Positions 3,171-44,506 of a stretch of DNA of 44,506 nucleotides are shown piece by piece; the first letter of the stretch is position 1; each line of letters starts with the position of its first letter. Origin of the DNA: an uncultured Bacilli bacterium. GTDB taxonomy: Bacteria; Bacillota_I; Bacilli_A; RF39; UBA660. The translations under genes and the position numbers were made by a program. The notes under the pieces are model-generated. The model made no database searches. It had not been told where the DNA came from and was given only the letters and a program-made list of their open reading frames with translations. The stretch spans positions 1-44,506 of the forward strand of contig CALVQO010000002.1 of assembly GCA_944358145.1 (NCBI GenBank), in the 5' to 3' direction.

Positions 3171-3938
3171 ATGAAAATATTAAAATATAAAAAAGGAAAA
3201 AGAAATGAATACAAAGTATTAACAGATGAATCTGAATATACATTATATGATGATATTATTATAAAACACGAATTATTACTAAAAAAAGAGATCAATAAAA
3301 AAGAATGGGATACCATTCTAAAAGAAAATAATTTATTAAAAGCATATTATGAATCTTTAAAAGCTATAGCTACCAAACTAAGAACAGCTAAAGAATTAAA
3401 AGAAATATTAAAGAAAAAAGGCTATGCCACTCAAGAAATAGAATATGCTTTAAAAAGATTAGATAATGAAGGATATTTAAATCATAAAACATATATTGAA
3501 GCATATATACATGATGCTATTCATCTAAAAATGGAAGGGGAAAGTAAAATCTTAGAAGATCTAAAAAAACTAGGATTTTCAGAAAAAGAAATAAAAGAAT
3601 ATTTAGATAAAGTAAATCATTCTATATATAAAGAAAAAATAGAAAAATATATTAATAAAAAACTAAAAGGAAATAAAAAGAGTGCTAATGAATTTAAAAG
3701 AAAAATAACTCTTGATTTAATTAACAAAGGATTTAATAAAGAAGATATTTCCAATTATTTAAATCATTTAGAAATAAAAGATAATGAACTAGAATTAGAA
3801 AAAATAATTCATAAACTATATCATAAATATATCAATAAATATGATTTATATACAACAAAAAGGAAAATAAAAGAACATCTATATGTCAAAGGCTATATCA
3901 ATATTGATATAGAAGAGTATTTAAAAAGAACCGATTAA
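3171..3938 (+). CDS. recX: RecX-like regulatory protein
   Basis: 255-aa basic protein with repeated three-helix modules of the type K.L.KKGY...EI..AL.RL...GYL. Its size matches Firmicute RecX. RBS GGGAGGAA lies before the ATG. Assigned from the pattern only. Confidence 0.6.
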   Translation: MKILKYKKGKRNEYKVLTDESEYTLYDDIIIKHELLLKKEINKKEWDTILKENNLLKAYYESLKAIATKLRTAKELKEILKKKGYATQEIEYALKRLDNEGYLNHKTYIEAYIHDAIHLKMEGESKILEDLKKLGFSEKEIKEYLDKVNHSIYKEKIEKYINKKLKGNKKSANEFKRKITLDLINKGFNKEDISNYLNHLEIKDNELELEKIIHKLYHKYINKYDLYTTKRKIKEHLYVKGYINIDIEEYLKRTD

Positions 3939-3946: not shown

Positions 3947-4977
3947 TAGTTTGAACTATTACTTGCATTTTCATAAGTATTAATTAAATTATCCATATAA
4001 ATGCTATATTGACTATCCATTTCACTATCAATAATATCAAGTTCATATAGATCTCTATAATAACGAATAGCATCTACCATTAAAGACTGATCTTCATTTA
4101 ACTTATCTTGAGCAATAGCCTCTCTCATTGAATCAACAGAATCATCATAACTTGCTTTTTCACCAGTTTTCGTTTTTAAGATAACATGATATCCAAGTTC
4201 AGTAGTAATTACTTCAGTAGAATATTCTCCATCTTCAAGATCATTAGCAGCTTTAACTAACTCATCATAGCTACTACTTAAAGAACCAATATTAATTTCT
4301 CCAAGATTACCACCTTCATCTTTAGTATCATCATCTTCTGAATATTCTTCAGCTAAACGAGCAAATGCACTTTCAATATCTTCACCATTATCCCGAGCTT
4401 GATTAAGTTCATCAATAATAGTTTGAATAGTTTCTTCTGCTTCCTTTTCTGCTGCTTCTTGTTCTTCATCAGTCATATCATCTGTAACATCTGGAGTAAC
4501 TAAAATATGAGAAATCGTCATATCAGGATAAACATCATTTTCATAATAATCTTGTAATTCTTCATCAGTGATATTATCTTCAACATAAGCAGTAATTGCT
4601 GCATTTTGCATATAACTAATATAAGCATAATTTTGATAAGCTTCTACAGTTTGAAAACCGTTATATTGAAGTAAACTTAATAATTCTTCTTCAGATCCAG
4701 CATTTGCTCTAAGTTGATCTACCATAGCTTCTGCATAAGCTTGTCCATTTTCCATTTCATCAGGGAACTCTTTCTCAAAAATGTACTTATCGATCATATT
4801 AAGTAGAGTATCTAACCCATAATTATTTTTGATTTCTTCATAAAAATCATTAGCACTAATCATATCTCCATCTTTAAATGTTACAACTGCCTCATCACCA
4901 TTAGATAGTGTTGGTATCTTACCACATCCACAAAGAAGTAATGAACATACTCCTAAAATCAATACTTTTTTCTTCAT
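3946..4977 (-). CDS. prsA: PrsA-like foldase lipoprotein (parvulin-type PPIase)
   Basis: Lipoprotein signal MKKKVLILGVCSLLLCGC with a lipobox. Parvulin-like region ...DMTISHILV...ELGYHVILKT. Acidic linker segments. Confidence 0.7.
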   Translation of the reverse strand: MKKKVLILGVCSLLLCGCGKIPTLSNGDEAVVTFKDGDMISANDFYEEIKNNYGLDTLLNMIDKYIFEKEFPDEMENGQAYAEAMVDQLRANAGSEEELLSLLQYNGFQTVEAYQNYAYISYMQNAAITAYVEDNITDEELQDYYENDVYPDMTISHILVTPDVTDDMTDEEQEAAEKEAEETIQTIIDELNQARDNGEDIESAFARLAEEYSEDDDTKDEGGNLGEINIGSLSSSYDELVKAANDLEDGEYSTEVITTELGYHVILKTKTGEKASYDDSVDSMREAIAQDKLNEDQSLMVDAIRYYRDLYELDIIDSEMDSQYSIYMDNLINTYENASNSSN

Positions 4978-14546: not shown

Positions 14547-15263
14547 ATGAATTTAAAAAATATGGTTTGGAATGAAGAAAATTATTTATTATTTTTAGAT
14601 AATTTAAAAAGTATAAGTGAAATTGAATATAAAAAGTTTAGTGAAAAAATTACTTTTACCAAATATGAAATGTTAGGAATAAGACTACCTAAATTAAGAA
14701 ATATTGCTAAAGAAATTAGCAAAGGAAATAGTAAATCTTTTTTAACTGTTGCTAAACATCATTATTATGAAGAAGTTATGATCGAACTATTAGTTTTAGC
14801 AAACATGAAAGAATTAGATGAACTGATGAAATATTTTAATGAATATATATCTTTAATCGATAATTGGGCTTTATGTGATACATTTTGTAATAGTTTAAAA
14901 ATAGTATCTAAGAATAAAGAATATTTCTTAGAAATAATAGATAAACTAGTAAAGAGTAAAAAAACTTATGAGATAAGAGTAGGATTAATCTTATTGTTAT
15001 GCTACTATGTGGAAGAAGAATATTTAGAGTTAATATTCAATGATCTAGATAGCATTAAAAGTGATGAATATTATGTGAATATGGCTGAAGCTTGGCTAGT
15101 TTGTGAAATATTTGTTAAGAATGAAAGTGCAGGCTTAAAATATTTAGAACATAATCAATTAAATAAATTTACCATAAATAAAAGTATTAGTAAAATAAGA
15201 GATAGTTATCGTGTATCAAAAGAAATGAAAGAATATATATTAAAATTTAGGAAAGGGAAATAA
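14547..15263 (+). CDS. DNA alkylation repair protein (AlkD-like HEAT-repeat family)
   Basis: A helical-repeat protein with the ...IDNWALCDTFC... motif typical of the family. ATG 14547 with a GAGGT RBS is preferred, because the track start at 14508 lies inside the terminator. Confidence 0.7.
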   Translation: MNLKNMVWNEENYLLFLDNLKSISEIEYKKFSEKITFTKYEMLGIRLPKLRNIAKEISKGNSKSFLTVAKHHYYEEVMIELLVLANMKELDELMKYFNEYISLIDNWALCDTFCNSLKIVSKNKEYFLEIIDKLVKSKKTYEIRVGLILLLCYYVEEEYLELIFNDLDSIKSDEYYVNMAEAWLVCEIFVKNESAGLKYLEHNQLNKFTINKSISKIRDSYRVSKEMKEYILKFRKGK

Positions 15264-16022
15264 ATGCTTAAAGATACAATTAAAAAAAGAGCAAATTTAA
15301 CCAAAAGACAAGAAAAAATAGAAGAATATTTTATTAATGATGCCATACTTTATACAAATAAACATTTAGAAACATATAAAAAAGATCCTTATTCATTAAA
15401 AGGAAGATATATATGTTCTGATTTAATGAAAAGAACTTTTACTTTTTATAACGAAAATAAACTAGAACATAATGAATTAGACTTTCTAATTCATAACTCA
15501 GCTGCCTCTTTAACCGATGAATTATTCCAAGAAATAGTAATAGATAAAAAAATAAAAGACTGCTTCTTTGTAGCAGGTATTCCTGGAGCAGGCAAATCTT
15601 TTTTTATTCAAACTTTAATTTTTGAAGAAAAAATTTCTCCAACAACAATGATTTATGAAGGAAGCATTATTACTGATACCATTATTGATAAAATAAAGTT
15701 AGCTTTAAAAAATAAGAAAAAAATTCATTTAATCATAATTAATCCAACGCTAAATTTAGCTTATGAAAATATTTTAAATAGGCAAAGAAAAACAGGAAGA
15801 GGAGCAAGCCTAGAAACAATGGCTAATATTTACAGTAATTTATATAATGCAGTAATGAGATTATATCAAATATTTGGAAATGAACTAAATATTAAAATTT
15901 ATAGCAAAACTAAAAATGATGAAATGAAATTATATACCCAAGTTCATGATATTAACCAATTAAAAACTGAAAGTTATGAAGAAGTATTAAAAAAATTAAA
16001 AGAAATTAGGAAGAAAGCATAA
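15264..16022 (+). CDS. P-loop NTPase/kinase-like protein (zeta-toxin/AAA_33-like fold suspected)
   Basis: Walker A GIPGAGKSF at about aa 105, then a hydrophobic strand HLIIINP. Its start abuts the previous stop (TAAATG). The family assignment is weak. Confidence 0.5.
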   Translation: MLKDTIKKRANLTKRQEKIEEYFINDAILYTNKHLETYKKDPYSLKGRYICSDLMKRTFTFYNENKLEHNELDFLIHNSAASLTDELFQEIVIDKKIKDCFFVAGIPGAGKSFFIQTLIFEEKISPTTMIYEGSIITDTIIDKIKLALKNKKKIHLIIINPTLNLAYENILNRQRKTGRGASLETMANIYSNLYNAVMRLYQIFGNELNIKIYSKTKNDEMKLYTQVHDINQLKTESYEEVLKKLKEIRKKA

Positions 16023-33381: not shown

Positions 33382-34602
33382 ATGAATTTAAATGAATTAA
33401 AAATAAATGGTGTGAATGAAATTGAACTAAATGATTCCCTAGAAACCTCCTTACTAAGTTTAAAAATTTCAATAAATGAAAATACAGTCATACCAGAAAG
33501 TAACGAACTTACAATTTATGTAGATACTAATTCTACTCCAACAGAAAACAGAAAAACTTATACCTTTTCTTTAGAAGAAAAATTATCTATTGGCGATGTA
33601 TTTATTGCTGAACCAATAATAAAAAATAAAAAAATTGAATTAAAAGCGTATATAGAAAGAACAACAGATGAAATAGAAGATTTAGAATATCAAGATATTT
33701 CTTTATTTGCAGGAACAAATTATATTTATACCAATTATGAAAATGCTACTATAGATATAATGTATCCTAAAAATAATGATTTAGTAAAATATTATTTAAA
33801 TAATATTTTATATAGTTTAAATAATAAAGATAAAATATTAAGTTTAGATGATATTTATTTCAAAGATGCATTTACAAAAGTAGATGATAATATAAATGCA
33901 AGCTTTAATAATTTAAGTATCGATTGTCTATCATCAAATAATAATAAATTCAATCTAGATAGTGATGGAAATTTAACAGTAAATAGTATTACTGCTTCTT
34001 CAAATACAGGATCGGATATTGATTTTGATGAAATTTACCCAATTGGTTCAGTATATTTAAGTGTTAATTCTACTAACCCTAGTGTATATTTTGGTGGTAC
34101 TTGGGAACAAATAAATGGTTATTATTTATATGCTGGAAACACAAATGAAACTGGCGGAAGCAATACTTCCGGAGCCTCTTCTGGAAATACGGGAGCTACT
34201 ACATTAACATTAAGTCAAATTCCAAGTCATAGCCATTCCATTCCTTCTTTAAGTGGTACTGCAGCTTCCAATGGAACTCATGCTCACAATATCGGAGCAG
34301 ATTTCGATGGTGGAGCAGGAACTGCACGATATACTGTTCATTCCAGAGGAACATCAGGAGCTGGCTATTTAAAAGCTACAAGTTCAGATGGAGCACATAC
34401 TCATACTGTAACAACGAGTGCTAGTAATACTGGTTCATCAGGAAGTACAACCTCACATACTCACACCTTAAATAACCATACACATACAATCCTCCATTTT
34501 ACAGCTTATATGTATTTAAAAGAACAGCTTAAAAAAAGCATCATTGATGCTTTTTTAGTTTATCGCCAATTCCATATTTTAAAAAGTTCATACACTAACT
34601 AA
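33382..34602 (+). CDS. Phage tail-fibre/baseplate-like protein with five HxH motifs; 3' end apparently frameshifted
   Basis: ...IYPIGSVYLSVNSTNPSVYFGGTWEQINGYYLYAG..., a Gly/Ser/Thr-rich region, and SHSHS, THAHN, AHTHT, SHTHT, NHTHT (34225-34488). After 34488 the annotated frame reads through a terminator hairpin. The alternative frame gives NPPFYSLYVFKRTA* ending at 34532. Confidence 0.65.
   Translation: MNLNELKINGVNEIELNDSLETSLLSLKISINENTVIPESNELTIYVDTNSTPTENRKTYTFSLEEKLSIGDVFIAEPIIKNKKIELKAYIERTTDEIEDLEYQDISLFAGTNYIYTNYENATIDIMYPKNNDLVKYYLNNILYSLNNKDKILSLDDIYFKDAFTKVDDNINASFNNLSIDCLSSNNNKFNLDSDGNLTVNSITASSNTGSDIDFDEIYPIGSVYLSVNSTNPSVYFGGTWEQINGYYLYAGNTNETGGSNTSGASSGNTGATTLTLSQIPSHSHSIPSLSGTAASNGTHAHNIGADFDGGAGTARYTVHSRGTSGAGYLKATSSDGAHTHTVTTSASNTGSSGSTTSHTHTLNNHTHTILHFTAYMYLKEQLKKSIIDAFLVYRQFHILKSSYTN
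34533..34556 (+). terminator. Rho-independent terminator
   Basis: AGCATC (34537-34542) pairs with GATGCT (34546-34551), preceded by an A-run and followed by T5-6. Confidence 0.75.
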
Positions 34603-34615
34603 AGAGGGAGGTTAT

Positions 34616-34981
34616 ATGAAAAATATTAAAGCTTATGTAAACATTAAAACAGATTATGATTTAATTAATTTAAGAATAAAATTACTAGAAGAAAAAGAAT
34701 TACAAATTATAAAAGAAAAAAGTTCACTGGAAGAGTTCAAAACTAAATTATATGATATTTTAAATCAAATAGAAGAAAAACTAAAAGATTTAAAAGGAAT
34801 AGAAAGAGAATTATTTTATGAAGTAATTGTAAAAGGAACTAACATAACAAGAGCAGTAGATAAAGTATCAATAACTTATGATGTAGATCCATCAACTATT
34901 TGGAAATATTATTACCCTAAAATAAAAGATGATATAAAAATGATTGAAAAAGAAGCCAAGTCTAGCGAGATTCTAGTATAG
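34616..34981 (+). CDS. Small coiled-coil plus putative HTH protein (ArpU/sigma-70 region-4-like?)
   Basis: Strong RBS AGAGGGAGG. The N-terminal half is coiled-coil. The C-terminal half ...ERELFYEVIVKGTNITRAVDKVSITYDVDPSTIWKYYYPKI... resembles a region-4-type HTH. Weak assignment. Confidence 0.4.
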   Translation: MKNIKAYVNIKTDYDLINLRIKLLEEKELQIIKEKSSLEEFKTKLYDILNQIEEKLKDLKGIERELFYEVIVKGTNITRAVDKVSITYDVDPSTIWKYYYPKIKDDIKMIEKEAKSSEILV

Positions 34982-35011: not shown

Positions 35012-38000
35012 ATGAAAGAATTAAAACATCTTCGAAAACGAAATGAAAAGCATTTCTTAAATGATGATGGGACAATTTCACTATATCTCTATAACAATGA
35101 TATTCATTATTTAAAAAATGGTGAATATTTAGATATTGATAATACATTAATAGAAGAAGAAAATACACTCATCAATAAAGAAAATAATTTTCATACTCGT
35201 TTTCCAAAAGATAAAAACACAAATTTATTAGTAGATATTACCAAAGATAATTACTATCTAAAAATATATTTACAAAATCATAAAAACAATAATATGAAAC
35301 TAAAAAGTAATAAAGAAAACATTAAATTAGAAAACATATTAAATGATATCGATATTGATTATAATGTAGTATCTACTAAATTAAAGGAATCAATTATTTT
35401 AAAAAATAAAAATAATATTCCACTATCTTTATCTTTCAAAATAGATACAAACTTAGAACTAGAATTAGAAGAAAAAGGAAGTATTCTAGCGAAAGATAAT
35501 GATAAAACAATATTTGTAATTGCATCTCCTTTTATGAAAGACAATAAAGGAGTATACAATTACAATATAAGCTATGATTTAAATTTAAAAGATAATACCT
35601 ATTTTTTAAATTTAAATTTAGACCAAGAATGGTTAAATGAATCAGAATTTCCAGTAATAATTGATCCAACAATTTCTAATATTGAAAATAATGGAATTGC
35701 TCAGGATGCTTATATTTACTCATGGGATGATGTAAACAATTATACTTATGATAATACTTTATTAAAAGTGGGAGTAGATCCAAATGCCACAACAGACATT
35801 TATGAAACACTAATTAAATTTAGCTTACCAAATATAGGAACAGGTTGTGATATAGTTGATGCGAGAGCCTATTTAATAAGCCATGGATCAGATATATCTT
35901 CCAATGATAATAATAACTACATCTATGTGTATGAAATGGAAAAAGAATGGAACGAAAATTCAGTTAATTTTAAAGATCTAGTATCAAGCCATAATGAATA
36001 TGTGGAAGACTATTTTCTACCTACAAGAAGCAAATTAGAAGGTGACAAAATTTATTTACAAACAAGTTCATTTAATATAACAAGATTAATTAAAAAATGG
36101 TATTCTGGAGAGCCAAATTATGGAATTCTACTAGCAACTAATAATATGCCAGAAAATTGTAAAGAGTATACTTTTTATTCTAAAGATAATGATCTTATTG
36201 GTAATGTTGATCCCAAACCGTATTTAGTAATTACTTATCGTAATCAAAATGGTTTAGAAGATTATATGTCATATCAAACCCAAGAATATACTGATGGAGC
36301 TAGTTACATTAATAATTTAACAGGAAACCTGACAACTAATTTTAATTTAAATGAAACCATTGAAGGTAAATATCCAATTAGTTTAAGTCTAATTTATAAT
36401 ACTAATGATGTTGTATTAAATAATGACTATGGTTATAAAGTAGGATATAAATTAAATCTTCATGAAATAATAAAAGAAGTAACCATTGATCAAACTAGTT
36501 ATTTAGAATATCTTGATGCAGACGGTACAATTCATTATTTTAGAAATGAAATAGATGAAAATAATAATATTATAGAAAATCAATTTGTTGATGAAGATGG
36601 TTTAAAATTAACTGCAACCAAAGAAGAAAATCAAATTACCATAAAAGATATGAATAACAACAAATATATATTTACTTTAAATAATAATATTTATTATTTA
36701 ACCAAATTAATGAATACTAGTAATGATACAGTAACAATTACTTATGATTCAAATAATAGAATTAATAAAATAACAGATGCCAATAATTCTAATATTAATA
36801 TTACTTATAATGCGAATGATATGATTATTACTAGTGATAGTACTACAACTACAATGAATTTTAATAATAATCAAATCTCAAGTATTGTAACAAAAAATGG
36901 TACAACGAGTTTTACTTATAATAATAATGGCTTAATTGAAAAAATAACTGATACAAATGGTTTAAGTAAAAGCTTTAATTATTATGAAGTAAGCCCATAT
37001 AAAGTAAAAAAAGTAGTAGAATATGGATTAAATAATGAAGAAGGAGCTTCTTTAGAATTCATTTATGATTTTATGAGTACTAAGGTTGTAAATAATAAGG
37101 GGAAACAACTTATCTATTCTTTTAATTTAATTGGAAATACGATAGGAGTTTCTAATTTAACAGAAGAAGTAAATTTATCAGATGCTTATGGTAGGGGTTC
37201 GACATATCTAACTGAATCATCAATTGATAATAAAATAAATAAAAATGTTAATGATATATCTTCAAATATTTTATCAACAAAATACACCAAAAACTTATTA
37301 AGTAATAGTAGTTTTGAAGAAGAAGGAGGAATGGGAAGAAGTACAGCTTATCCTGGACGAACTAATGCCTATGCTAGAACAGGAAGTTACTCCCTAGATT
37401 TAAACCAAGGAAGTATTGTAGAATATGTAGATAAGAGTAATATTTACTATACGTTTAGTGGATACTTTAAAAATGATGAAGAAATAGAAATAGTAGCTAG
37501 TTCTCAAGCTTATGCTACCGGCCCGTGTTATTTATATTTTGGAACTATCCCTAAAAATGAAGAATTTACTCGTTATAATTTTTCTTTCCTATTGCCAGAA
37601 AATAAATCACTAATTTTAATTGATTTTAATGTAGCAAACAATGGTAATGCTTATTTAGATGATATGCAATTAGAAGAAGGTAGTATTGCCAATTATTACA
37701 ATTTTGTAGAAAATGGTGATTTTTATGATGGAGCAAATGGTTGGAATGTTGATGCAAATACCAATTATGCTATAATAAATGAAAAAAATAGCAAAGTATT
37801 GCAAATAGATTTTAAACAAGATCAAATTACATCTTTCTCAAAATCAATTCCTCTTCATGGAAGAAAAGATGATATTTATTGTTTATCATTTTGGTATAAA
37901 AATGATGGAATTATTCCAAGTATATCTAATAATACAATTGATTTAAAACATTTCTTAAATTTTGAATATACAAATCTAGTAGAAGATAATGAAGAGGAAG

Positions 38001-41000
38001 AAGATAATTTAAACTATTATAATAATAATTGGACTTATTTTTCTAAAACTTATAAAGCTAAAGATAATTTTGATAAAATAAACTTAAATTTCAAATTCAT
38101 AAAAAGTTTAGGTAAATTTCATATTACAAATATTATGTTAACAAATGCTATTATGTTTGAAAAAAATTCATACAAAAAAGAAACAGGAGTTTTAGAAACA
38201 ATAGAAGAATCTGAAAACAATAAAACAACCTTTAAATATGATGAAAATAATCAATTGATGAGTATGTTTAATCCTCTTGGAAATAACTTTAAATTTGAAT
38301 ATGATAATAATGTAACAGATAGAGTATTAAAAGGAATATCTCCATCAGGTATATCTAATGAAATTGAATATGATGAATATGGTAATCCGATAAAAACAAT
38401 AATTAATAATGTTAATCCAGATCAAGATGTATTAAATAATAAAAATTATTATATACGTCTTAAAGGAACCCCAAAGTATTTAGACTGTGACTTTTTAACA
38501 AATGAAATACTTTTAAAAGAAAATAATTGTAGTCATGATACATTTACACTTTTAAAAGAAGAAGATTATTATCGAATCAAAATAAACAACAAATATTTAA
38601 CTCTTGTTAATAATGAAATAAAATTAACCAAACAAGTAACAGAAGAATCATTATTTAATCTATCAAAAAATGATAATGATAGTTATTTAATTACACCTAA
38701 AACAAAATATATTACAACGAGTTCTGAAGGAGGAACAGTAATTGATTTAGTTAATTATAATTTAGCAAATGTTAATGATAAATTATCATTAAAAACAAGT
38801 GATACAACAGAAAGTGAAGAACAATTCTATTTTGAAGATATAGATACACAAGCTTTTATTGAATCAACAGCAGAATACACTCTAGACGGTAGATTTGTTA
38901 CGAAAACAATAGATTCCTTAGGCAAAGTTACAACTTATGATATCAATACCACGAATGGACTTACCAATAGTATAACAGATGCCAACAACATAACAACTTA
39001 TTACACTTATAATGATAAAGATCAAATAACAAAAGTAAAAAAAGATGAAAAAGAAGTAAACTATACATACAATACCAATAATTTACTATCTAAAATAACA
39101 GCAAATAACAAAGAATATAATTTTACCTATGATAATTTCTTAAATGCTAAACAAATTAAGATAGGAGATAATATTACTTTAATTACCAATAATTATGAAG
39201 AAAATAATGGTAATCTTTTGTCAAGTACTTATGGTAATGGTGATACTATTAGTTATACATATGATGAACTTGATAGAGTTAAAACAAAGACAAATGATAC
39301 AAATACATACAATTATCACTATGATAATTTAGGAAACTTAACTAAAATTACAGGCTTTTTAACTTCACATTCATATAACTTTGATTCGAATAACCAAATC
39401 ATAGAATATTCTCAAGGAGATGGAGTATCCGATGATAATTACTATATAAGATATAATTATGATAAAAATAGCAATATTACTAATAAAAAATATAAACTAA
39501 ATTATCTTACAAATACCATAAAACAAGAAACAGCTTTCGAATACAATATAGATGATGCAATAACCAAAGTAACATTCGATAACAATAACTTAAATTATAG
39601 TTATGATTATCTAGGAAGATTAACTAGTAAAGATATAAATGGTAATAACAAAGTAGAATATACATATATAACGAATGGTAATAAAACATCAACTGTATTA
39701 AAATCAATGAAGATAAACAATGATTTATATGAATATTACTATGATAATTTATATAATATCACCGATATTTATATAAATAATAAATTAATAAATCATTACG
39801 AATATGATAACTTTAACGAACTAATTAAAGAAGATAATTATAATTTAAATAAAACAATAAGATACACTTATGATAATGCTGGAAATATCTTAAAGAAACA
39901 AGAATATGAGTTAGATACTTATAATTTATTACATACAAATACTTATGAATATAATAATGCTAATTGGGAAGACCAATTAACAAAATACAACAATGAAACA
40001 ATTACTTATGATGCTATAGGTAATCCATTAATCATAGGAAATAAAACTCTAACTTGGGTAAATGGCAGACAATTATCAAGTTACACAGATAATGATTTAA
40101 ATATTACTTATGCTTATAATAAAGATGGAATTAGAGACCAAAAAGTAGTAAATAATACAATAACTAACTATTTTACAGAGAATAACAAGATAATATTTGA
40201 ACAAACAGGAAATAATATGGTATACTATATACGAGATGAAGAAGGAAGTTTAATAGGATTTAAATATAATAATACACTTTATTATTATATTAAAAACATG
40301 CAAGAAGATATTATAGGAATAACGGATAGTAATTATAATTTACTATGCAGTTATGAATATGATTCATGGGGAAAACTAATCTCTATTAAAGATAATAATG
40401 GAAGTATTATTACTGATCCATCTCATATAGGATATATCAATCCATTTAGATATAGATCATACTATTATGATAATGAAACAAAATTATATTATCTAAATAG
40501 TAGATACTATAATCCTGAATGGGGTAGGTTTATTAATGCAGATAATCTTTTTGAACAAAATAACTATTTATTGGGAAACAATTTATATATTTATTGTACT
40601 AATAATCCAGCTAATTATTTAGATTATACTGGAAGAAGTATTTCTTTAATAGGGATAGATGAGTTATATGAATATAGCTATGCTGTTGTTTGCACAAAGG
40701 ATAACGGATATTATAAAGTATTTATTGATATAGAAGGGAAAAATTTTGTAGCAGATATTAATGGAAATGCAATAAGATTCAATTTTGAAGTAAATTCTGA
40801 TTATAATCATAAATATGCTTATACTTTAGCAACTGCTGCATATAATGCATATACTATTGTTTATGGAGAAAAAATGTATGGTAGAACTGTAGAAGGAATT
40901 TCAATGGAAATAAAATTACATGATTCCTTATATAAATGGACTGGAATGAGTAATTTTATGATTGCAGACATGGGTACTTCTAAAAATGATAATAACGCAA

Positions 41001-41146
41001 TTATTTCAGAAATATTAAGATTTAAAAACCTTGCAATAAAAAAAGTAACTTCTAATAATTTTGCAACTGAATCAAAAACCGAAACCAAAAAACCAAAGTA
41101 TACAGGTTTATTAGATTTTCTTTTAAAAAATATTTTGATACTCTAA
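35012..41146 (+). CDS. YD/RHS-repeat polymorphic toxin (2044 aa) with an unassigned C-terminal toxin domain
   Basis: Many YD repeats (...ITYDSNNRINKITDANN..., ...YTYNDKDQITKV..., ...YTYDELDRVKTKT...). A DNRLRE-like beta-sandwich lies at about 35650-36250 (...YETLIKFSLP...ARAYLISH...EWNENSVNF...). The core end is PFRYRSYYYDNETKLYYLNSRYYNPEWGRFINADN. The demarcation block is NLYIYCTNNPANYLDYTGR (to 40636). About 169 aa of variable C-terminus follow (40637-41143). Confidence 0.9.
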   Translation: MKELKHLRKRNEKHFLNDDGTISLYLYNNDIHYLKNGEYLDIDNTLIEEENTLINKENNFHTRFPKDKNTNLLVDITKDNYYLKIYLQNHKNNNMKLKSNKENIKLENILNDIDIDYNVVSTKLKESIILKNKNNIPLSLSFKIDTNLELELEEKGSILAKDNDKTIFVIASPFMKDNKGVYNYNISYDLNLKDNTYFLNLNLDQEWLNESEFPVIIDPTISNIENNGIAQDAYIYSWDDVNNYTYDNTLLKVGVDPNATTDIYETLIKFSLPNIGTGCDIVDARAYLISHGSDISSNDNNNYIYVYEMEKEWNENSVNFKDLVSSHNEYVEDYFLPTRSKLEGDKIYLQTSSFNITRLIKKWYSGEPNYGILLATNNMPENCKEYTFYSKDNDLIGNVDPKPYLVITYRNQNGLEDYMSYQTQEYTDGASYINNLTGNLTTNFNLNETIEGKYPISLSLIYNTNDVVLNNDYGYKVGYKLNLHEIIKEVTIDQTSYLEYLDADGTIHYFRNEIDENNNIIENQFVDEDGLKLTATKEENQITIKDMNNNKYIFTLNNNIYYLTKLMNTSNDTVTITYDSNNRINKITDANNSNINITYNANDMIITSDSTTTTMNFNNNQISSIVTKNGTTSFTYNNNGLIEKITDTNGLSKSFNYYEVSPYKVKKVVEYGLNNEEGASLEFIYDFMSTKVVNNKGKQLIYSFNLIGNTIGVSNLTEEVNLSDAYGRGSTYLTESSIDNKINKNVNDISSNILSTKYTKNLLSNSSFEEEGGMGRSTAYPGRTNAYARTGSYSLDLNQGSIVEYVDKSNIYYTFSGYFKNDEEIEIVASSQAYATGPCYLYFGTIPKNEEFTRYNFSFLLPENKSLILIDFNVANNGNAYLDDMQLEEGSIANYYNFVENGDFYDGANGWNVDANTNYAIINEKNSKVLQIDFKQDQITSFSKSIPLHGRKDDIYCLSFWYKNDGIIPSISNNTIDLKHFLNFEYTNLVEDNEEEEDNLNYYNNNWTYFSKTYKAKDNFDKINLNFKFIKSLGKFHITNIMLTNAIMFEKNSYKKETGVLETIEESENNKTTFKYDENNQLMSMFNPLGNNFKFEYDNNVTDRVLKGISPSGISNEIEYDEYGNPIKTIINNVNPDQDVLNNKNYYIRLKGTPKYLDCDFLTNEILLKENNCSHDTFTLLKEEDYYRIKINNKYLTLVNNEIKLTKQVTEESLFNLSKNDNDSYLITPKTKYITTSSEGGTVIDLVNYNLANVNDKLSLKTSDTTESEEQFYFEDIDTQAFIESTAEYTLDGRFVTKTIDSLGKVTTYDINTTNGLTNSITDANNITTYYTYNDKDQITKVKKDEKEVNYTYNTNNLLSKITANNKEYNFTYDNFLNAKQIKIGDNITLITNNYEENNGNLLSSTYGNGDTISYTYDELDRVKTKTNDTNTYNYHYDNLGNLTKITGFLTSHSYNFDSNNQIIEYSQGDGVSDDNYYIRYNYDKNSNITNKKYKLNYLTNTIKQETAFEYNIDDAITKVTFDNNNLNYSYDYLGRLTSKDINGNNKVEYTYITNGNKTSTVLKSMKINNDLYEYYYDNLYNITDIYINNKLINHYEYDNFNELIKEDNYNLNKTIRYTYDNAGNILKKQEYELDTYNLLHTNTYEYNNANWEDQLTKYNNETITYDAIGNPLIIGNKTLTWVNGRQLSSYTDNDLNITYAYNKDGIRDQKVVNNTITNYFTENNKIIFEQTGNNMVYYIRDEEGSLIGFKYNNTLYYYIKNMQEDIIGITDSNYNLLCSYEYDSWGKLISIKDNNGSIITDPSHIGYINPFRYRSYYYDNETKLYYLNSRYYNPEWGRFINADNLFEQNNYLLGNNLYIYCTNNPANYLDYTGRSISLIGIDELYEYSYAVVCTKDNGYYKVFIDIEGKNFVADINGNAIRFNFEVNSDYNHKYAYTLATAAYNAYTIVYGEKMYGRTVEGISMEIKLHDSLYKWTGMSNFMIADMGTSKNDNNAIISEILRFKNLAIKKVTSNNFATESKTETKKPKYTGLLDFLLKNILIL

Positions 41147-41160
41147 GTACTAGAAAGCAT

Positions 41161-41697
41161 GTGATGAATATGAAAAATATATTATTTAATTTAGCTTTAT
41201 TATTTTTACTATATTTTAGTAATCTTTTTGGCATAAAGCATGAATCTACAATAATAAATATTTTGTTACTCTTAGTAATAATAATTTTAATCATAATAAA
41301 TTTAAATAATATTTTAAAAAACAAAAAAACATATATTAAATTAATTAATTTTATTTTAGTATTTTTAATATTTGGAGTTTTATTTACAAAAACGTTTTAT
41401 GAATTAATTTTCTTTCCTCCAAACTTTTTAACAGATTTATCTCAAAGAGGAGAATATACCAATCTTCAGAATAATGATAAATTATATATTTTAAATTATG
41501 ATGATGGTGGAAAAAGTGGCCCAAGTATTGTATGGCTAGAAAAAGAATTGATTTTAAACTTTAAATGTGTTAAAGAAATAGCAGTATCAAATGCATACGA
41601 TTATAAATTTAATTTAGAAGAAATATACAAAGAATTATCCAAAAAAGATTATGGAATTTGTTATAATAATTTTGAAGTTATAGAAATGAATGATTAA
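41161..41697 (+). CDS. Three-TM membrane protein, presumptive cognate immunity protein
   Basis: It starts 15 nt after the RHS stop. It has three hydrophobic helices (ILFNLALLFLLYF..., IINILLLLVIIILIIINL, LINFILVFLIFGVLF) and a soluble tail of about 90 aa. The role is inferred from position only. The start could be 41161, 41164 or 41170. Confidence 0.5.
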   Translation: MMNMKNILFNLALLFLLYFSNLFGIKHESTIINILLLLVIIILIIINLNNILKNKKTYIKLINFILVFLIFGVLFTKTFYELIFFPPNFLTDLSQRGEYTNLQNNDKLYILNYDDGGKSGPSIVWLEKELILNFKCVKEIAVSNAYDYKFNLEEIYKELSKKDYGICYNNFEVIEMND

Positions 41698-41856
41698 AAA
41701 ATCACTTACCCAAAAAAGACTATTATTTGATGTATAATTTTAAAATCAAAGAATATATAACATTTACAAACATGTATAAAGAAAAAAGTCGAGATTATTT
41801 ATTAATAATTTTAGATACTCAAAACAATGAATTAGTTTATTTAGAATATCATAGTT

Positions 41857-41889
41857 AAGAACTAATGGAATAAATTTACATTAGTTCTT
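41857..41889 (+). terminator. Cassette-junction hairpin, copy 1
   Basis: A perfect 11-bp stem AAGAACTAATG (41857-41867) with CATTAGTTCTT (41879-41889), then TTTAT. Confidence 0.7.
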
Positions 41890-41895
41890 TTTATA

Positions 41896-41955
41896 TATTT
41901 GAAGAAACAGGAAATAATATGATATACTATAATACGAGATGAGGAAGGAAGTTTA
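41896..41955 (+). repeat. Relic of the RHS core coding sequence (copy of 40194-40252)
   Basis: TATTTGAAgAAACAGGAAATAATATGaTATACTATAaTACGAGATGAgGAAGGAAGTTTA aligns with 40194-40252 with 3 substitutions and a 1-nt indel. In the RHS gene this region encodes IFEQTGNNMVYYIRDEEGSL. Confidence 0.85.
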
Positions 41956-42647
41956 TGGTAAAGTTTAAAGAAAATGATATATTTGCATTAAAAATAGAAG
42001 ATGAAACTAGCGAGTATTATGGAAGATATATAATATTAATAAAATGCAGTAATTCTGAATGGGAAGAAAGTACTAATAAACAACTTTTTCGATTTAAAAT
42101 ATCTAAAAATAAAACTTTACCCCAATTAAACGAAATTAATTCATTAGAATATATTATAACCTATATTCAACATGAATTAAAAAAATATTTACCATTTGAT
42201 GGTTGCAAAAAATTTAAAGAATTAAAAAAGGAAAGAGATAAAATTCAAGTGTATCCAGATGAATATGGCTATTTATATAGTTTCATTACTAAAATTTTTG
42301 GAGTAAGTAAAAATATTCCAAAAAACTTAATTTATATCGGGAATATGGCTTTAGAATTACCTTATCATGAATATATTCCAGTATGTGAATATGGATATAT
42401 ACGTGAATATTCAGGATGGGAAAATATAGAAAAAGAATTAATAAAAGATTATAAATCTTATAATTTAAAACAAAGCAAAATATTTTGTAAAGAAGCAGCA
42501 ACAAATGAAAAAAACGAAGTAATAGATTTAATTAAGCTTGAAAAAAGACTAGAAAACATAAATTATGACAAAATCTATTTAAATGAAGAAGCAATAGAAG
42601 ATTCTCTAACCTATGTAGGAGGAGAAGACGAAGATCCATTTAAATAA
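41955..42647 (+). CDS. Cytoplasmic acidic protein (230 aa), orphan-immunity candidate
   Basis: The ATG lies exactly where the RHS-relic homology ends. Its RBS, GAGGAAGGAAG, comes from the relic. No TM helices and no recognisable motifs. It is followed by copy 2 of the junction hairpin. Confidence 0.55.
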   Translation: MVKFKENDIFALKIEDETSEYYGRYIILIKCSNSEWEESTNKQLFRFKISKNKTLPQLNEINSLEYIITYIQHELKKYLPFDGCKKFKELKKERDKIQVYPDEYGYLYSFITKIFGVSKNIPKNLIYIGNMALELPYHEYIPVCEYGYIREYSGWENIEKELIKDYKSYNLKQSKIFCKEAATNEKNEVIDLIKLEKRLENINYDKIYLNEEAIEDSLTYVGGEDEDPFK

Positions 42648-42653
42648 ATATAG

Positions 42654-42686
42654 AAGAACTAATGTAAATCAATTGCATTAGTTCTT
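42654..42686 (+). terminator. Cassette-junction hairpin, copy 2
   Basis: The same 11-bp stem AAGAACTAATG (42654-42664) with CATTAGTTCTT (42676-42686), a different loop, then TTTAT. Confidence 0.7.
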
Positions 42687-42695
42687 TTTATCTAT

Positions 42696-42724
42696 TTGAA
42701 TAAAAAGTTAACACATGATATACT
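42696..42724 (+). promoter_or_regulatory. Sigma-A-type promoter of the third cassette
   Basis: TTGAAT (42696-42701), a 17-nt spacer ending in TGa, then TATACT (42719-42724). It sits in the same position as TTGAAG-N18-TATACT at 41899-41928. Confidence 0.5.
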
Positions 42725-42794
42725 AGAGTTAAGTGTTAAAAAGAGTTTAATAGAACAACAAAACTAATTTCTATTAATAATAAAGGAGTTAGAA

Positions 42795-43949
42795 ATGAAC
42801 GAGTTATTTAAAATAGATACAATTATTTCTTTTAAAGAGTATTTAAAAATCAAAAAATTTTATAAAAAAACAAATCAAATAATAATATTTATTTCCATTT
42901 TAATTATCTTAATATCTATTTTAAATTTTATAAAAGATTTTCATATCATTTTTTTAATCGCTAGTATAAGTGTGTTCGTAATATATCTTGATTTTTTAAT
43001 CTATCTATTTTTATTACTAATTTATTATTATCGATATAATAAACAAAAAAATGAATTAAATTATACCATCTTTTTCTATGAAAACCAAATGAAAAGAAAA
43101 GGAAGAAAAGTTGAAGATATCATCAAATATGAAGATATCGAAAAGATAAAAGAAAATAAAAAAGAACTAACATTGATCTTAAAAAACAATAATATCAAAA
43201 TATTAAAATCTAATGATCAAAAAGAAATAATAAGTTTTATTAAAAAAATCCAAAAACAAAACAAAAATCAAATAGTTCAAACCAATAAAATGTTAAATCA
43301 CTTATTTATTACATTGATATGCTTATTTTGTATTATTCTATTATTAAATTTAAGTTTAATAGATAATAATACCAGTAATTCTTATTGTTACATGTGGACT
43401 ATGTGGTTAATATTACCTTTATCCATATTTTCGATAATAATTGGTTTAAAATATAAAGATAAATCTTCAAAAAGTATTAAAAATATTATAGGTGGTTCTC
43501 TAATTACTTTTCTTGCTTTAATTTATGGCTTACTTTCATTTATACCAAATAATGAAATAGATTATCAAGAAATTTATCAATTAGAAGATATTATAGGTAT
43601 AGAATTACCTAAAACAGGGATATACAGAAAAGAAGAAATAAAAAACAGTAATTTAGAAAATCATATCGTCCATGAATTAATTTTTTCTAAAAAGAACGAA
43701 TATTTAAAAGTAGAACAGGAGATAGAAGCAAGCAACAAATGGTTAGATTCAGATGAAGTATCTCGTGAGTTATCCTTCTTTTTACCAGTAGTTTGTAGAT
43801 TCAGTTGCTCTTATTCAGTTTATATTGATGGAGCCAAAACGCAAAATACTATTCCAAAAGAAAAAGGAACATATCACATTTATGCGATGCTATATAATGA
43901 TGATAATCAAGTGTTAAGAATTGACGAATATACTTATAATTACAACTAA
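42795..43949 (+). CDS. Multi-TM protein with a YcxB-like N-terminal module and a C-terminal soluble domain (384 aa)
   Basis: RBS AAAGGAG. Two TM helices are followed by a PH-like segment (...IKYEDIEKIKENKKELTLILKNNNIKILK...), as in YcxB-type proteins. Then come about three more TM helices and a soluble domain of about 150 aa. Confidence 0.5.
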   Translation: MNELFKIDTIISFKEYLKIKKFYKKTNQIIIFISILIILISILNFIKDFHIIFLIASISVFVIYLDFLIYLFLLLIYYYRYNKQKNELNYTIFFYENQMKRKGRKVEDIIKYEDIEKIKENKKELTLILKNNNIKILKSNDQKEIISFIKKIQKQNKNQIVQTNKMLNHLFITLICLFCIILLLNLSLIDNNTSNSYCYMWTMWLILPLSIFSIIIGLKYKDKSSKSIKNIIGGSLITFLALIYGLLSFIPNNEIDYQEIYQLEDIIGIELPKTGIYRKEEIKNSNLENHIVHELIFSKKNEYLKVEQEIEASNKWLDSDEVSRELSFFLPVVCRFSCSYSVYIDGAKTQNTIPKEKGTYHIYAMLYNDDNQVLRIDEYTYNYN

Positions 43950-44046
43950 AAAAGATGTCAATTAATAAACACTTATAAAATCCTTATTTATTTTTAAAAC
44001 ATTTTACATTTAAAATAATATATGGTATATTTTAAATGGTGATAAT

Positions 44047-44506
44047 ATGGATATTATATACGAAAATTGGTTTATTATAATGCTTATACTTTTATCAATT
44101 ATCATATATTTTCCAATTTCATTAATTTTAAATAAATGTAAAATAGTGATAGTAAAAAAATAATATTTATAAAAATATCAATAAGTTTAAGTTGCATATG
44201 TGCATTAGTTTGGATTTTTTCTTATTTTTATATAAGAATTAAAAGTAATAGCATTGAAATGGCAGAAAATAATATAGTATCTCATATATCAATGTTAACT
44301 TTTTTGACACTATCAATACCGGGAATACTCATGTTGATGTTTGGCAACATTAAACCACCCAAACCAGATAAATATTTGTTAAAACAAGATAATTATCTAG
44401 ATTTTAGTAATTATTTAAATAAAAGGATGTTATTAAATGACTATCAAGAAGTATATAGTGAAGAAAATCTAAAAATATATAAGAAGATCATAAAAAAGAA
44501 TAAACA
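44047..44506 (+). pseudogene. Membrane protein gene interrupted at an A7 run; 3' end outside the window
   Basis: MDIIYENWFIIMLILLSIIIYFPISLILNKCKIVIVKK* stops at 44161-44163. The frame that opens at the A7 run (44154-44160) stays open to the window end (IIFIKISISLSCICALVWIFSYFY...). One extra A would fuse the two. Promoter TTTACA-N17-TATATT lies upstream. Confidence 0.45.

What the first reader, a model, noticed from the sequence alone, without database searches (positions are those of the whole stretch)
41896..41955. A ~60-nt relic of the RHS core downstream of the toxin supplies the promoter and RBS of the next ORF
Seen: 41896-41955 copies 40194-40252 (inside the RHS gene, encoding IFEQTGNNMVYYIRDEEGSL) with 3 substitutions and one 1-nt indel. 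Homology stops exactly at the ATG of ORF 41955-42647.

Within the relic, TTGAAG (41899-41904), an 18-nt spacer and TGaTATACT (41921-41928) form a promoter-like element. The former codons GAG GAA GGA AGT now provide a GGAAGGA Shine-Dalgarno sequence 4 nt before the ATG.

Established: Rhs loci accumulate displaced 'orphan' CT/immunity modules by recombination within conserved core sequence.

Inference: this is a recombination scar in which the orphan toxin was lost and only an immunity-like gene was kept, now expressed from former toxin coding sequence.
Basis: partly seen in the sequence, partly recalled or inferred. Interest (0 to 1): 0.66.

Follow-up and report, generated by a model that had tools for sequence, protein, structure and literature searches.

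The report
Rhs-core relic driving orphan immunity gene
A 60-base leftover of a bacterial toxin gene sits directly in front of an antidote (immunity) gene whose own toxin has been deleted. It very probably supplies that gene's promoter, which is a tidy but expected by-product of how these toxin loci evolve.

Summary
Window 41895-41955 matches 40193-40252 inside the RHS gene with 3 substitutions and 1 inserted base (score 98; shuffles 30 ± 3).

The segment is the standard 5' "head" of displaced (orphan) Rhs toxin/immunity modules in this uncultured-Bacilli lineage. A related genome carries the same terminator-hairpin|head junction, but there the head runs on into core 3' end, toxin domain and immunity gene.

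ORF 41955-42647 belongs to a 35-member family with no Pfam hit. In three other loci a member overlaps the stop codon of a GIY-YIG-like Rhs toxin domain, so it is an orphan immunity gene.

The junction is explained by a 10-nt microhomology, AGGAAGTTTA. It occurs in the head and again at the toxin's 3' end, just before the immunity ATG. One locus holds both copies 915 nt apart, which is the predicted precursor.

The Shine-Dalgarno sequence is therefore also native to the immunity gene.

Promoter function is inferred, not shown. TTGAAG-18-TGaTATACT lies just after a terminator. In ten hairpin-anchored relics upstream of about eight unrelated genes the promoter positions are kept while spacer and downstream sequence decay.

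A core-embedded rhs promoter is already known in Salmonella. I rate this a new variant of a known kind, of moderate interest.

The parts
35012..41146 (+). Full-length RHS/YD-repeat toxin gene (2044 aa). The conserved core ends near 40544 and a lineage-specific C-terminal toxin domain follows.
   Evidence: ORF list. Pfam RHS_repeat E=6e-25. Window 40159-41955 is 93.5% identical to orphan module 3 of L003, while the core upstream is only 74-86% identical.
40193..40252 (+). In-gene copy of the 'head' (codes IFEQTGNNMVYYIRDEEGSL). It contains TTGAAC (40197-40202), an 18-nt spacer and TGgTATACT (-10 at 40221-40226), and ends in AGGAAGTTTA (40243-40252).
41161..41697 (+). 178-aa membrane protein directly after the RHS stop codon. 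It is the presumed cognate immunity gene of the resident toxin domain.
   Evidence: The assignment rests on position only; there is no Pfam hit.
41704..41858 (+). 3' remnant (last ~50 codons) of a 157-aa immunity-like membrane protein gene. The gene is intact in the ~92% identical relative L018.
41857..41894 (+). Intrinsic-terminator-like hairpin (11-bp stem 41857-41867 / 41879-41889) plus a T-run. It forms the conserved left boundary of the head.
   Evidence: Fold -11.9 kcal/mol, z -4.9. The same hairpin|head junction occurs at L003 10698, 15323 and 16801 and in L001, L016 and L020.
41895..41955 (+). The relic: the orphan-module head truncated after 61 nt. Its elements are -35 TTGAAG (41899-41904), TG (41920-41921), -10 TATACT (41923-41928), an inferred transcription start near 41935, and the SD-like GAGGAAGGAAG (41941-41951).
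41946..41955 (+). Crossover microhomology AGGAAGTTTA. It is shared by the head (40243-40252) and by the 3' end of GIY-YIG-like toxin genes just before the immunity ATG (L003 9992, L026 5545).
41955..42647 (+). Orphan immunity gene (230 aa) of an undescribed family.
   Evidence: 35 homologues, no Pfam hit. Members overlap the stop of GIY-YIG-like RHS toxin domains in L003, L010 and L026. dN/dS is 0.24-0.33. The AF2 model has pLDDT 88.6 and no PDB fold match.
42654..42691 (+). Second copy of the terminator hairpin plus T-run.
   Evidence: D1, I3. One search lists it as a terminator. Fold -16.9 kcal/mol, z -6.9.
42692..42726 (+). Second, decayed head relic. It keeps TTGAAT (42696-42701), a 17-nt spacer and TGaTATACT (-10 at 42719-42724), but the spacer sequence has diverged. 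It lies upstream of the 384-aa membrane protein gene at 42795-43949.
   Evidence: Its similarity to the RHS gene alone is not significant; homology is shown through the first intergenic region and relatives.

Best explanation
Window 41895-41955 is the truncated 5' 'head' of a displaced (orphan) Rhs C-terminal toxin/immunity module.

In this uncultured-Bacilli lineage, orphan modules begin right after a terminator hairpin, with the core segment ATATTTGAAC...AGGAAGTTTA. They then continue through the core 3' end, a toxin domain and an immunity gene.

In the window's ancestor, a RecA-independent (microhomology) deletion or illegitimate recombination joined two copies of AGGAAGTTTA. One copy was in the head. 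The other sits at the very 3' end of a GIY-YIG-like toxin domain gene and overlaps the Shine-Dalgarno sequence and ATG of its immunity gene. This event removed about 0.9 kb or more (core 3' end plus toxin) and left hairpin - 61-nt head - immunity gene.

The head carries a sigma-A-type promoter with an extended -10: TTGAAG, 18 nt, TGaTATACT. The terminator immediately upstream blocks read-through, so this promoter is what most likely transcribes the orphan immunity gene, starting near 41935.

Shown here:
- the homology;
- the shared hairpin|head junction;
- the toxin linkage of the gene family;
- the microhomology;
- the existence of the precursor architecture;
- the selective retention of the promoter positions across relics.

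Inferred:
- that the deletion happened in situ;
- that the promoter fires;
- that the protein neutralises the GIY-YIG-like toxin.
For: Homology is far beyond chance.

L003 carries five intact orphan modules that start with this head. Three of them have the identical hairpin|head junction. Window 40159-41955 equals L003 13618-15417 at 93.5% identity, and the homology stops exactly at the end of AGGAAGTTTA. At that point L003 runs on into an orphan toxin.

Family members overlap the stop codon of RHS toxin domains in L003 and L010 (main genes) and in L026/L027 (orphan). Those toxin domains are mutually homologous, and two of three hit Pfam GIY-YIG at E ~0.004.

AGGAAGTTTA lies at L003 9992 and L026 5545, directly before TGG of the ATG overlap, and at every head. 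L026 has both copies 915 nt apart within one orphan module.

For the promoter, I used a hairpin-anchored set chosen without reference to the promoter motif. Ten non-coding relics upstream of about eight unrelated genes differ from the head consensus at these rates:
- 13/140 promoter positions;
- 50/160 spacer positions;
- 107/250 positions downstream of the -10.

Spacer length stays at 16-18 nt. One relic has changed to the perfect consensus TATAAT. The only relic that lost its -10 (L021) has no adjacent gene. The 3' end points of the relics differ but all lie at or after the -10.

A terminator hairpin sits directly upstream. The gene is under purifying selection, with dN/dS 0.24-0.33.

There is a precedent. 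In Salmonella Typhimurium, promoters embedded in conserved rhs core sequence, shared by the main and orphan genes, were confirmed by 5'RACE (PMC7043789).
Against: There are no transcript data.

Consensus promoter matches are at chance frequency in this AT-rich region.

The relics are related by descent, so the Fisher tests overstate independence. The earlier regex-based count was biased by how the relics were found.

The L026 6370 relic has a 15-nt spacer, which would make a poor promoter.

The relic is 100% identical between the window and L001/L002 because of recent shared ancestry: the whole of 41266-42162 is identical. That identity says nothing about selection.

The GIY-YIG assignment is below Pfam's gathering threshold, and a profile search of PDB sequences found nothing.

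Immunity function rests on gene position only. The predicted fold has no PDB match.

In situ deletion cannot be told apart from junction formation during import of foreign DNA.
Confidence: 0.72

Rival explanations
1. The relic is a real recombination scar but functionally neutral. The immunity gene would be transcribed by read-through from the RHS/immunity operon or from elsewhere, and the -35/-10 resemblance would be an accident of AT-rich former coding sequence.
For: Promoter-like matches are no more frequent than in shuffles: 51 found, 52.5 expected. Orphan CDI modules in E. coli EC93 are co-transcribed with the upstream genes (PMC3150448). One relic (L021) has lost its -10, and another (L026 6370) has a 15-nt spacer.
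Against: A stable hairpin plus T-run lies directly upstream. Only 61 nt separate it from the ATG. The promoter positions are kept while spacer and downstream sequence decay, across relics in front of about eight unrelated genes. One -10 has changed towards the consensus TATAAT. The only relic with a decayed -10 has no gene next to it.
Confidence: 0.15
2. The junction did not arise by deletion inside a resident orphan module. It arose during acquisition: an incoming fragment carrying the toxin 3' end plus immunity gene was joined to a resident head by homology-facilitated illegitimate recombination at AGGAAGTTTA. Alternatively, the whole hairpin-relic-immunity cassette was imported ready-made by homologous recombination between hairpin/head repeats.
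For: The locus is a mosaic. Flanks are 93.5% identical to L003 but the immunity gene only 74%. There is a recombination breakpoint inside the gene at 42163 relative to L001/L002. Cassette order differs among ~92% identical relatives. The same junction type occurs in the more distant L028, and with a different head variant in L001. Homology-facilitated illegitimate recombination has been proposed for Vibrio immunity arrays (PMC5361080).
Against: Nothing here excludes it. It differs from the main explanation only in where and when the AGGAAGTTTA crossover happened. The end product and its likely function are the same.
Confidence: 0.3
3. Hairpin plus head is the boundary of a cassette moved by a site-specific recombinase (integron-like, with the hairpin acting as an attC-like site). 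The similarity to the RHS core would then reflect the attachment site.
For: The hairpin|head junction is constant across many cassettes. Tandem arrays of cassettes occur in L001 and L016.
Against: No integrase or recombinase gene was called in any of the loci examined. Other 5' boundaries exist: two L003 orphans and L004 7287 start about 20 nt earlier without a hairpin, and the L026 orphan starts about 440 nt earlier. The hairpins have the form of ordinary intrinsic terminators.
Confidence: 0.05
4. The similarity is a chance match of low-complexity AT-rich sequence.
For: The region has about 20% G+C.
Against: The score is 98 against a shuffle maximum of 44. The same segment recurs at orphan heads in other genomes.
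Confidence: 0.01

Closest known systems
Orphan rhs-CT/rhsI modules downstream of full-length rhs genes (C-terminal displacement model; Poole et al. 2011, PMC3150448; Koskiniemi et al. 2014, PMC3967940)
   Same: The relic lies downstream of a full-length RHS gene, begins with a fragment homologous to the core 3' region, and is followed by an immunity gene. Relatives carry arrays of intact orphans. A module that is 'main' in one strain is 'orphan' in another.
   Different: The toxin-coding part is gone entirely, leaving 61 nt of core. The host is an uncultured Bacilli bacterium rather than a proteobacterium. Each module is preceded by its own terminator hairpin.
Internal P2A/P2B promoters in the conserved rhs core of Salmonella Typhimurium, shared by the main and orphan genes (Starsta et al. 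2020, PMC7043789)
   Same: A promoter is embedded in conserved Rhs core coding sequence. It is therefore carried along with every displaced module and is able to transcribe toxin-domain and immunity genes independently of the full-length gene.
   Different: In Salmonella the start site is 89 nt upstream of the PxxxxDPxGL-coding sequence. Here the element lies about 350 nt before the end of the conserved core. There is no sequence relationship and the sigma-A extended -10 is of a different type. [quoted passage not shown] Here the promoter also survives after the toxin is lost.
Orphan immunity gene arrays formed by effector displacement (Vibrio cholerae T6SS clusters, Kirchberger et al. 2017, PMC5361080; acquired interbacterial defence clusters of Bacteroidales, recalled from Ross et al. 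2019 and from PMC12247911 as listed)
   Same: Immunity genes are retained without their toxins, stacked 3' of a toxin locus, shuffled by recombination, and presumed to protect against neighbours' toxins.
   Different: Here each immunity gene keeps a short, defined relic of the delivery-domain coding sequence that looks like its promoter. The crossover site can be read to the base as a 10-nt microhomology.
Integron gene-cassette arrays
   Same: Short conserved boundary elements separate many unrelated small genes in an array whose order varies between strains.
   Different: No integrase or attC was found, and every cassette appears to have its own promoter rather than sharing a single Pc. Shuffling is best explained by homologous recombination between repeats of about 80 nt.

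Membership tests
Rhs orphan CT/immunity module | Lies downstream of a full-length rhs gene on the same strand | tested here: met
   The RHS gene is at 35012-41146 and the relic at 41895.
Rhs orphan CT/immunity module | Starts with a fragment homologous to the 3' part of the rhs core | tested here: met
   61 nt, score 98 against shuffles of 30 ± 3. The hairpin|head junction is the same as in intact orphans of L003.
Rhs orphan CT/immunity module | Encodes a C-terminal toxin domain after the core end motif | tested here: not met
   The relic runs straight into the ATG of the immunity gene. In the core reading frame it stops after 15 codons. It is therefore a toxin-less remnant, not an intact orphan module.
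Rhs orphan CT/immunity module | Is followed by the immunity gene that belongs to the module's toxin | tested here: met
   Homologues overlap the stop codon of GIY-YIG-like RHS toxin domains in L003, L010 and L026/L027.
Orphan immunity gene | The cognate toxin is absent from the locus | tested here: met
   The resident toxin domain is unrelated to the L003/L010/L026 toxin domain. Only the 44.5-kb window could be checked, not the whole genome.
Orphan immunity gene | An intact gene under purifying selection | tested here: met
   dN/dS 0.24-0.33. 21 invariant columns in 34 sequences. Confident AF2 model, pLDDT 88.6.
Orphan immunity gene | The protein neutralises the toxin | not testable with these tools
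   Needs co-expression or competition assays.
Sigma-A/sigma-70 promoter with extended -10 | -35 and -10 hexamers close to consensus, a 16-18 nt spacer, and TG one base upstream of the -10 | tested here: met
   TTGAAG (4/6), 18 nt, TG, TATACT (5/6) at 41899-41928. On its own this is weak evidence, because such matches occur at chance frequency here.
Sigma-A/sigma-70 promoter with extended -10 | Promoter positions conserved relative to neighbouring non-coding positions in related sequences | tested here: met
   Mismatches are 13/140 at promoter positions, 50/160 in the spacer and 107/250 downstream, in 10 hairpin-anchored relics. The sequences are not independent.
Sigma-A/sigma-70 promoter with extended -10 | A mapped transcription start 6-9 nt downstream of the -10 | not testable with these tools
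   No RNA data are available.
Salmonella-type internal rhs P2 promoter | Lies in the conserved core shared by the main and orphan genes | tested here: met
   The element is present in the main genes (window, L003, L010, L018, L021, L026) and in all orphan heads.
Salmonella-type internal rhs P2 promoter | Start site about 89 nt upstream of the PxxxxDPxGL-coding sequence; sequence homologous to P2 | tested here: not met
   The element starts about 350 nt before the end of the conserved core at 40544. It is analogous to P2, not a member of that family.
Intrinsic terminator | Stable stem-loop followed by a T-run | tested here: met
   41857-41894 and 42654-42691. The first has only 2-3 G-C pairs and was not listed by the consensus scan. 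The second was listed.
GIY-YIG nuclease toxin domain (the lost toxin) | Significant match to the GIY-YIG profile | tested here: inconclusive
   Pfam PF01541 E 0.004-0.005 at 17.5 bits, against a cut-off of 22.6, covering profile positions 2-78 of 78 in two of three toxin domains. There is no PDB sequence match.

The most novel reading that the evidence does not exclude
The Rhs core of this Bacilli lineage contains a selectively maintained sigma-A promoter. Together with the preceding terminator hairpin it forms a portable boundary element of about 80 nt.

This element would be the minimal unit retained after repeated, independent toxin-loss events, seen here in front of about eight unrelated immunity-type gene families. 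It would insulate and express each cassette individually. It would also serve as the homology that shuffles, duplicates and deletes cassettes.

The result would be an integrase-free, integron-like immunity-gene array that grows out of a toxin gene.
Probability: 0.4. Interest if true: 0.6.

Novelty: new variant of a known kind. Interest (0 to 1): 0.45.

Why it matters
This locus shows, base by base, how a toxin/immunity module becomes a pure defence gene. The toxin is cut out at a 10-nt microhomology. What stays behind is just enough former toxin-delivery coding sequence to act as a promoter.

If the promoter is confirmed, two things follow. First, core-embedded promoters in Rhs genes, so far shown in Salmonella, would be a convergent and general solution for expressing displaced modules. 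Second, short core relics could serve as a sequence tag for finding unannotated immunity genes in metagenomes.

The analysis also defines a new immunity protein family with no Pfam hit and no PDB fold match, together with its probable GIY-YIG-like toxin partner.

Tried and rejected
1. Similarity of the second intergenic region (42648-42794) to the RHS gene. The score of 37 falls within the shuffle range. Homology could be shown only indirectly, through the first intergenic region and relatives.

2. A consensus promoter scan as evidence. It was uninformative: 51 matches against 52.5 expected.

3. A regex-based collection of relics with a Fisher test. I rejected it as biased, because the pattern itself required the motifs. 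I replaced it with a hairpin-anchored set.

4. The 100% identity of the relic between the window and L001/L002 as a sign of selection. I rejected this because the whole of 41266-42162 is identical, indicating a recent shared block.

5. Fold search of the immunity model against the PDB. No match reached E<=0.001.

6. Profile search of the toxin domain against PDB sequences. Nothing relevant was found.

7. RNA structure in the relic/leader 41890-41960. It folds no better than shuffles, z -0.8.

8. The genome-contig scan. It gave only one locus, an uncultured Bacilli MAG, so the taxonomic spread could not be assessed.

9. The site-specific cassette idea. No recombinase was found in any locus.

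Full report
**Observation.** The repeat is real.
- Window 41895-41955 aligns to 40193-40252 inside the 2044-aa RHS gene (35012-41146). There are three substitutions (41904, 41922, 41943) and one inserted A at 41931.
- The local score is 98. In 300 dinucleotide-preserving shuffles the mean was 29.8, sd 3.3 and maximum 44.
- Similarity ends at the A of the ATG of ORF 41955-42647.
- A consensus match alone means little here. The scan finds 51 promoter-like sites where shuffles give 52.5.

**Surroundings in the window.**
- The window is chromosomal DNA of a low-G+C bacterium. It encodes IleRS, a PASTA-domain PBP, ABC transporters and phosphoglucomutase.
- The only hit in the species-representative genome collection is an "uncultured Bacilli bacterium" MAG.
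- After the RHS stop codon come, in order:
  1. a 178-aa membrane protein gene (41161-41697);
  2. the last ~50 codons of a 157-aa gene that is intact in a ~92% identical relative (41704-41858);
  3. a terminator-like hairpin with T-run (41857-41894; -11.9 kcal/mol, z -4.9);
  4. the relic;
  5. the 230-aa ORF;
  6. a second copy of the hairpin (42654-42691; -16.9 kcal/mol; listed as a terminator);
  7. TTGAAT, 17 nt, TGaTATACT (42696-42724), with a diverged spacer;
  8. a 384-aa membrane protein gene.
- Among the + strand sites in the scan of 39500-44506, TG-extended promoter-like sites occur only at the core copy (40197), the two relics (41899, 42696) and 44003.

**What the relic is.** Related loci settle this.
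- L003 (GCA_964261755.1) has the same IleRS - Gp10_C-like - 121-aa - RHS arrangement, followed by five orphan modules.
- All five orphans begin with the same core segment. Three have exactly the window's hairpin|ATATTTGAAC junction. Two begin about 20 nt earlier, directly after an RDD-family gene.
- In L003 these heads continue through about 350 nt of core 3' end into a toxin domain and an immunity gene.
- Window 40159-41955 matches L003 13618-15417 at 93.5%, although the cores upstream are only 74-86% identical.
- So the window's main toxin/immunity module is L003's orphan 3. The block "remnant - hairpin - next head" is shared up to the last base of AGGAAGTTTA. Beyond that, L003 runs into orphan 4 and the window runs into the 230-aa ORF.
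- The relic is therefore the standard head of an orphan module, cut short. It is not a stray copy of the resident gene.

**What the ORF is.**
- It has no Pfam hit and 35 homologues.
- In L003 and L010, a family member overlaps by 7 nt the stop codon of the main RHS gene.
- In L026/L027, a member overlaps the stop of an orphan consisting of a core fragment plus toxin domain.
- The three toxin domains are homologous to each other (42-53% identity). They carry a GIY-YIG-like pattern (YxY...VEY[VI]GRT...R..H...E...N).
- Two of the three hit Pfam GIY-YIG at E~0.004. That is below the gathering score, so I call the assignment probable only. A profile search of PDB sequences gave nothing.
- Elsewhere the family occurs in tandem arrays and in toxin-less islands at the same chromosomal site (L001, L004, L016).
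- dN/dS against five homologues is 0.24-0.33.
- The AF2 model is confident (pLDDT 88.6) but has no PDB fold match.
- The window's own RHS toxin domain is unrelated.
- Conclusion: this is an orphan immunity gene. The assignment rests on conserved gene linkage, not on an assay.

**How the junction formed.**
- In L003 and L026 the toxin gene ends ...TATGTAGG-AGGAAGTTTA-TGGT..., with the immunity ATG inside it.
- Every head reads ...GATGA(A/G)GA-AGGAAGTTTA-ATAGG....
- The window reads ...GATGAGGA-AGGAAGTTTA-TGGTAAAG. That is head on the left, immunity gene on the right, with the shared 10-mer in between.
- L026 contains both copies in one orphan module, at 4630 and 5545, 915 nt apart. A deletion between them reproduces the window's junction.
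- This explains why homology "stops exactly at the ATG".
- It also corrects one point. The Shine-Dalgarno region is not simply donated by former codons. The bases AGGAAGTTT before the ATG are the immunity gene's native upstream sequence as well. Only GAGGA further upstream is unambiguously core-derived.
- Whether the crossover was an in situ deletion or happened during import of DNA cannot be decided:
  - the locus is a mosaic;
  - the same junction type occurs with a different head variant in L001/L016/L020;
  - it also occurs in the more distant L028.

**Is the head a promoter?** This is inferred, not shown. Four lines of evidence point the same way.

1. A terminator lies directly upstream and only 61 nt separate it from the ATG. 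If the gene is transcribed independently, the promoter must lie in the relic.

2. To avoid choosing relics by the motif, I collected every sequence that follows a copy of the hairpin and aligned them.
   - Ten non-coding relics lie in front of the imm230 family, the 362-387-aa family, and the 156-aa, 311-aa and 269-aa genes.
   - Against the head consensus they differ as follows:

   | Positions | All ten relics | Six most diverged relics |
   |---|---|---|
   | 14 promoter positions | 13/140 | 10/84 |
   | Spacer | 50/160 | 40/96 |
   | 25 nt after the -10 | 107/250 | 79/150 |

   - Most promoter mismatches are at the sixth base of the -35 hexamer.
   - The sequences are related, so the p-values are only indicative.

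3. Spacer length stays at 16-18 nt. One relic has changed to TATAAT. The only relic with a destroyed -10 (L021) has no gene next to it.

4. Relic end points differ, but all lie at or after the -10. Examples are right after TATACTATA, at AGGAAGTTTA, at TTTAATAG and at AATAGGATTTAG, each followed within 10-45 nt by a Shine-Dalgarno sequence and a start codon. The 5' boundaries all lie 4-25 nt upstream of the -35.

The invariant ATG before TATACT fits the Gram-positive "-16 region" (from my own knowledge of Voskuil & Chambliss 1998; not checked here).

One exception: the L026 6370 relic has a 15-nt spacer.

**Comparison with what is known.**
- Orphan rhs-CT/rhsI modules and their recombination with the main gene are established (PMC3150448, PMC3967940).
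- Immunity arrays left by effector displacement are known in Vibrio (PMC5361080).
- In Salmonella Typhimurium, promoters P2A/P2B lie in conserved core sequence shared by the main and orphan rhs. They start 89 nt before the PxxxxDPxGL-coding sequence and were confirmed by 5'RACE and reporters (PMC7043789).
- The present case works like that, but differs in several respects:
  - it is not homologous to P2;
  - it lies about 350 nt before the core end;
  - it is found in a Bacilli lineage;
  - it comes with a terminator before every module, unlike the co-transcribed EC93 CDI orphans;
  - it persists as a minimal relic after toxin loss.
- I therefore rate it a new variant of a known kind.

**Verdict.** Interest is moderate (0.45). 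A specialist would find the base-resolved deletion mechanism and the recurrent promoter-only relics neat and useful for annotation, but not contrary to current models.

Noticed in passing
window 42654-42726: A second terminator hairpin plus a decayed head relic (TTGAAT, 17 nt, TGaTATACT) lies upstream of the 384-aa membrane protein gene at 42795-43949. Homologous relics precede the 362-387-aa homologues in L001, L016, L019 and L004.
   Followed up: yes
window 41704-41858: This is a 5'-truncated remnant (about the last 50 codons, ...DYLLIILDTQNNELVYLEYHS*) of a 157-aa membrane immunity-like gene. The gene is intact in L018 (rc 3362-3835). The same remnant, with stop codons, is present in L003 near 15160-15320.
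   Followed up: partly
window 42163 (inside ORF 41955-42647): The window is 100% identical to L001/L002 from 41266 to 42162. From 42163 onwards it is about 7% divergent. This marks a recombination or gene-conversion breakpoint inside the immunity gene.
   Followed up: partly
window 40159-41955 vs L003 13618-15417: The window's main toxin domain plus immunity module is an orphan module in L003 (93.5% identity). L003's main toxin module type survives in the window only as the immunity gene. This is a direct example of main/orphan exchange.
   Followed up: yes
window 42600-42647; L003 9960-10007; L026 5520-5566: The immunity family has an invariant but predicted-disordered tail, ...SLTYVGGEDEDPF. 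The cognate toxin domains end ...TYVGGS(L/E)W*. Both are encoded by TATGTAGGAGGA. The reason for this shared motif between toxin and immunity C-termini is unexplained; it could be a recombination substrate or a linear motif.
   Followed up: no
L001 1386-1531 (also L002, L016, L020): The 146-nt spacer upstream of a paralogous immunity gene (MVKKLL...) encodes a toxin C-terminal remnant, ...QDETYVGGCKW*. This is a second kind of toxin-loss scar (the 3' toxin end is kept) in the same arrays.
   Followed up: partly
L001 690-5457; L016 1088-4218: Tandem arrays of four to six paralogues of the 230/231-aa immunity gene are separated by hairpin plus head relics. Cassette order differs between ~92-93% identical relatives.
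   Followed up: partly
L028 2-844: The end of an RHS core (…RYYNPKWGRFINCD) runs directly into a double RDD-like membrane protein instead of a toxin domain. This may be another toxin deletion, one that fused the core to an immunity gene.
   Followed up: no
window 33382-34981; L003 19424-20543; L004 13280-14399; L010 7104-8104; L021 (rc) 1804-2962: The RHS gene is preceded by a Gp10_C-like (phage baseplate) protein and a 121-aa protein. The immunity islands of relatives end with a holin plus an M23 or CHAP/LysM peptidase. The RHS N-terminus shows no obvious signal peptide. The export route is unknown; holin/peptidase-assisted release is one possibility.
   Followed up: no
window 44003-44031: TTTACA, 17 nt, TGgTATATT lies upstream of the small membrane ORF starting at 44048. 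In L016/L018 the homologous gene sits behind a hairpin plus a head relic truncated inside the -10 (TGATATATA).
   Followed up: partly
window 41955-42647: The immunity family gives a confident AF2 model (pLDDT 88.6, pTM 0.81) with no Foldseek match in the PDB at E<=0.001. This may be an undescribed fold.
   Followed up: partly
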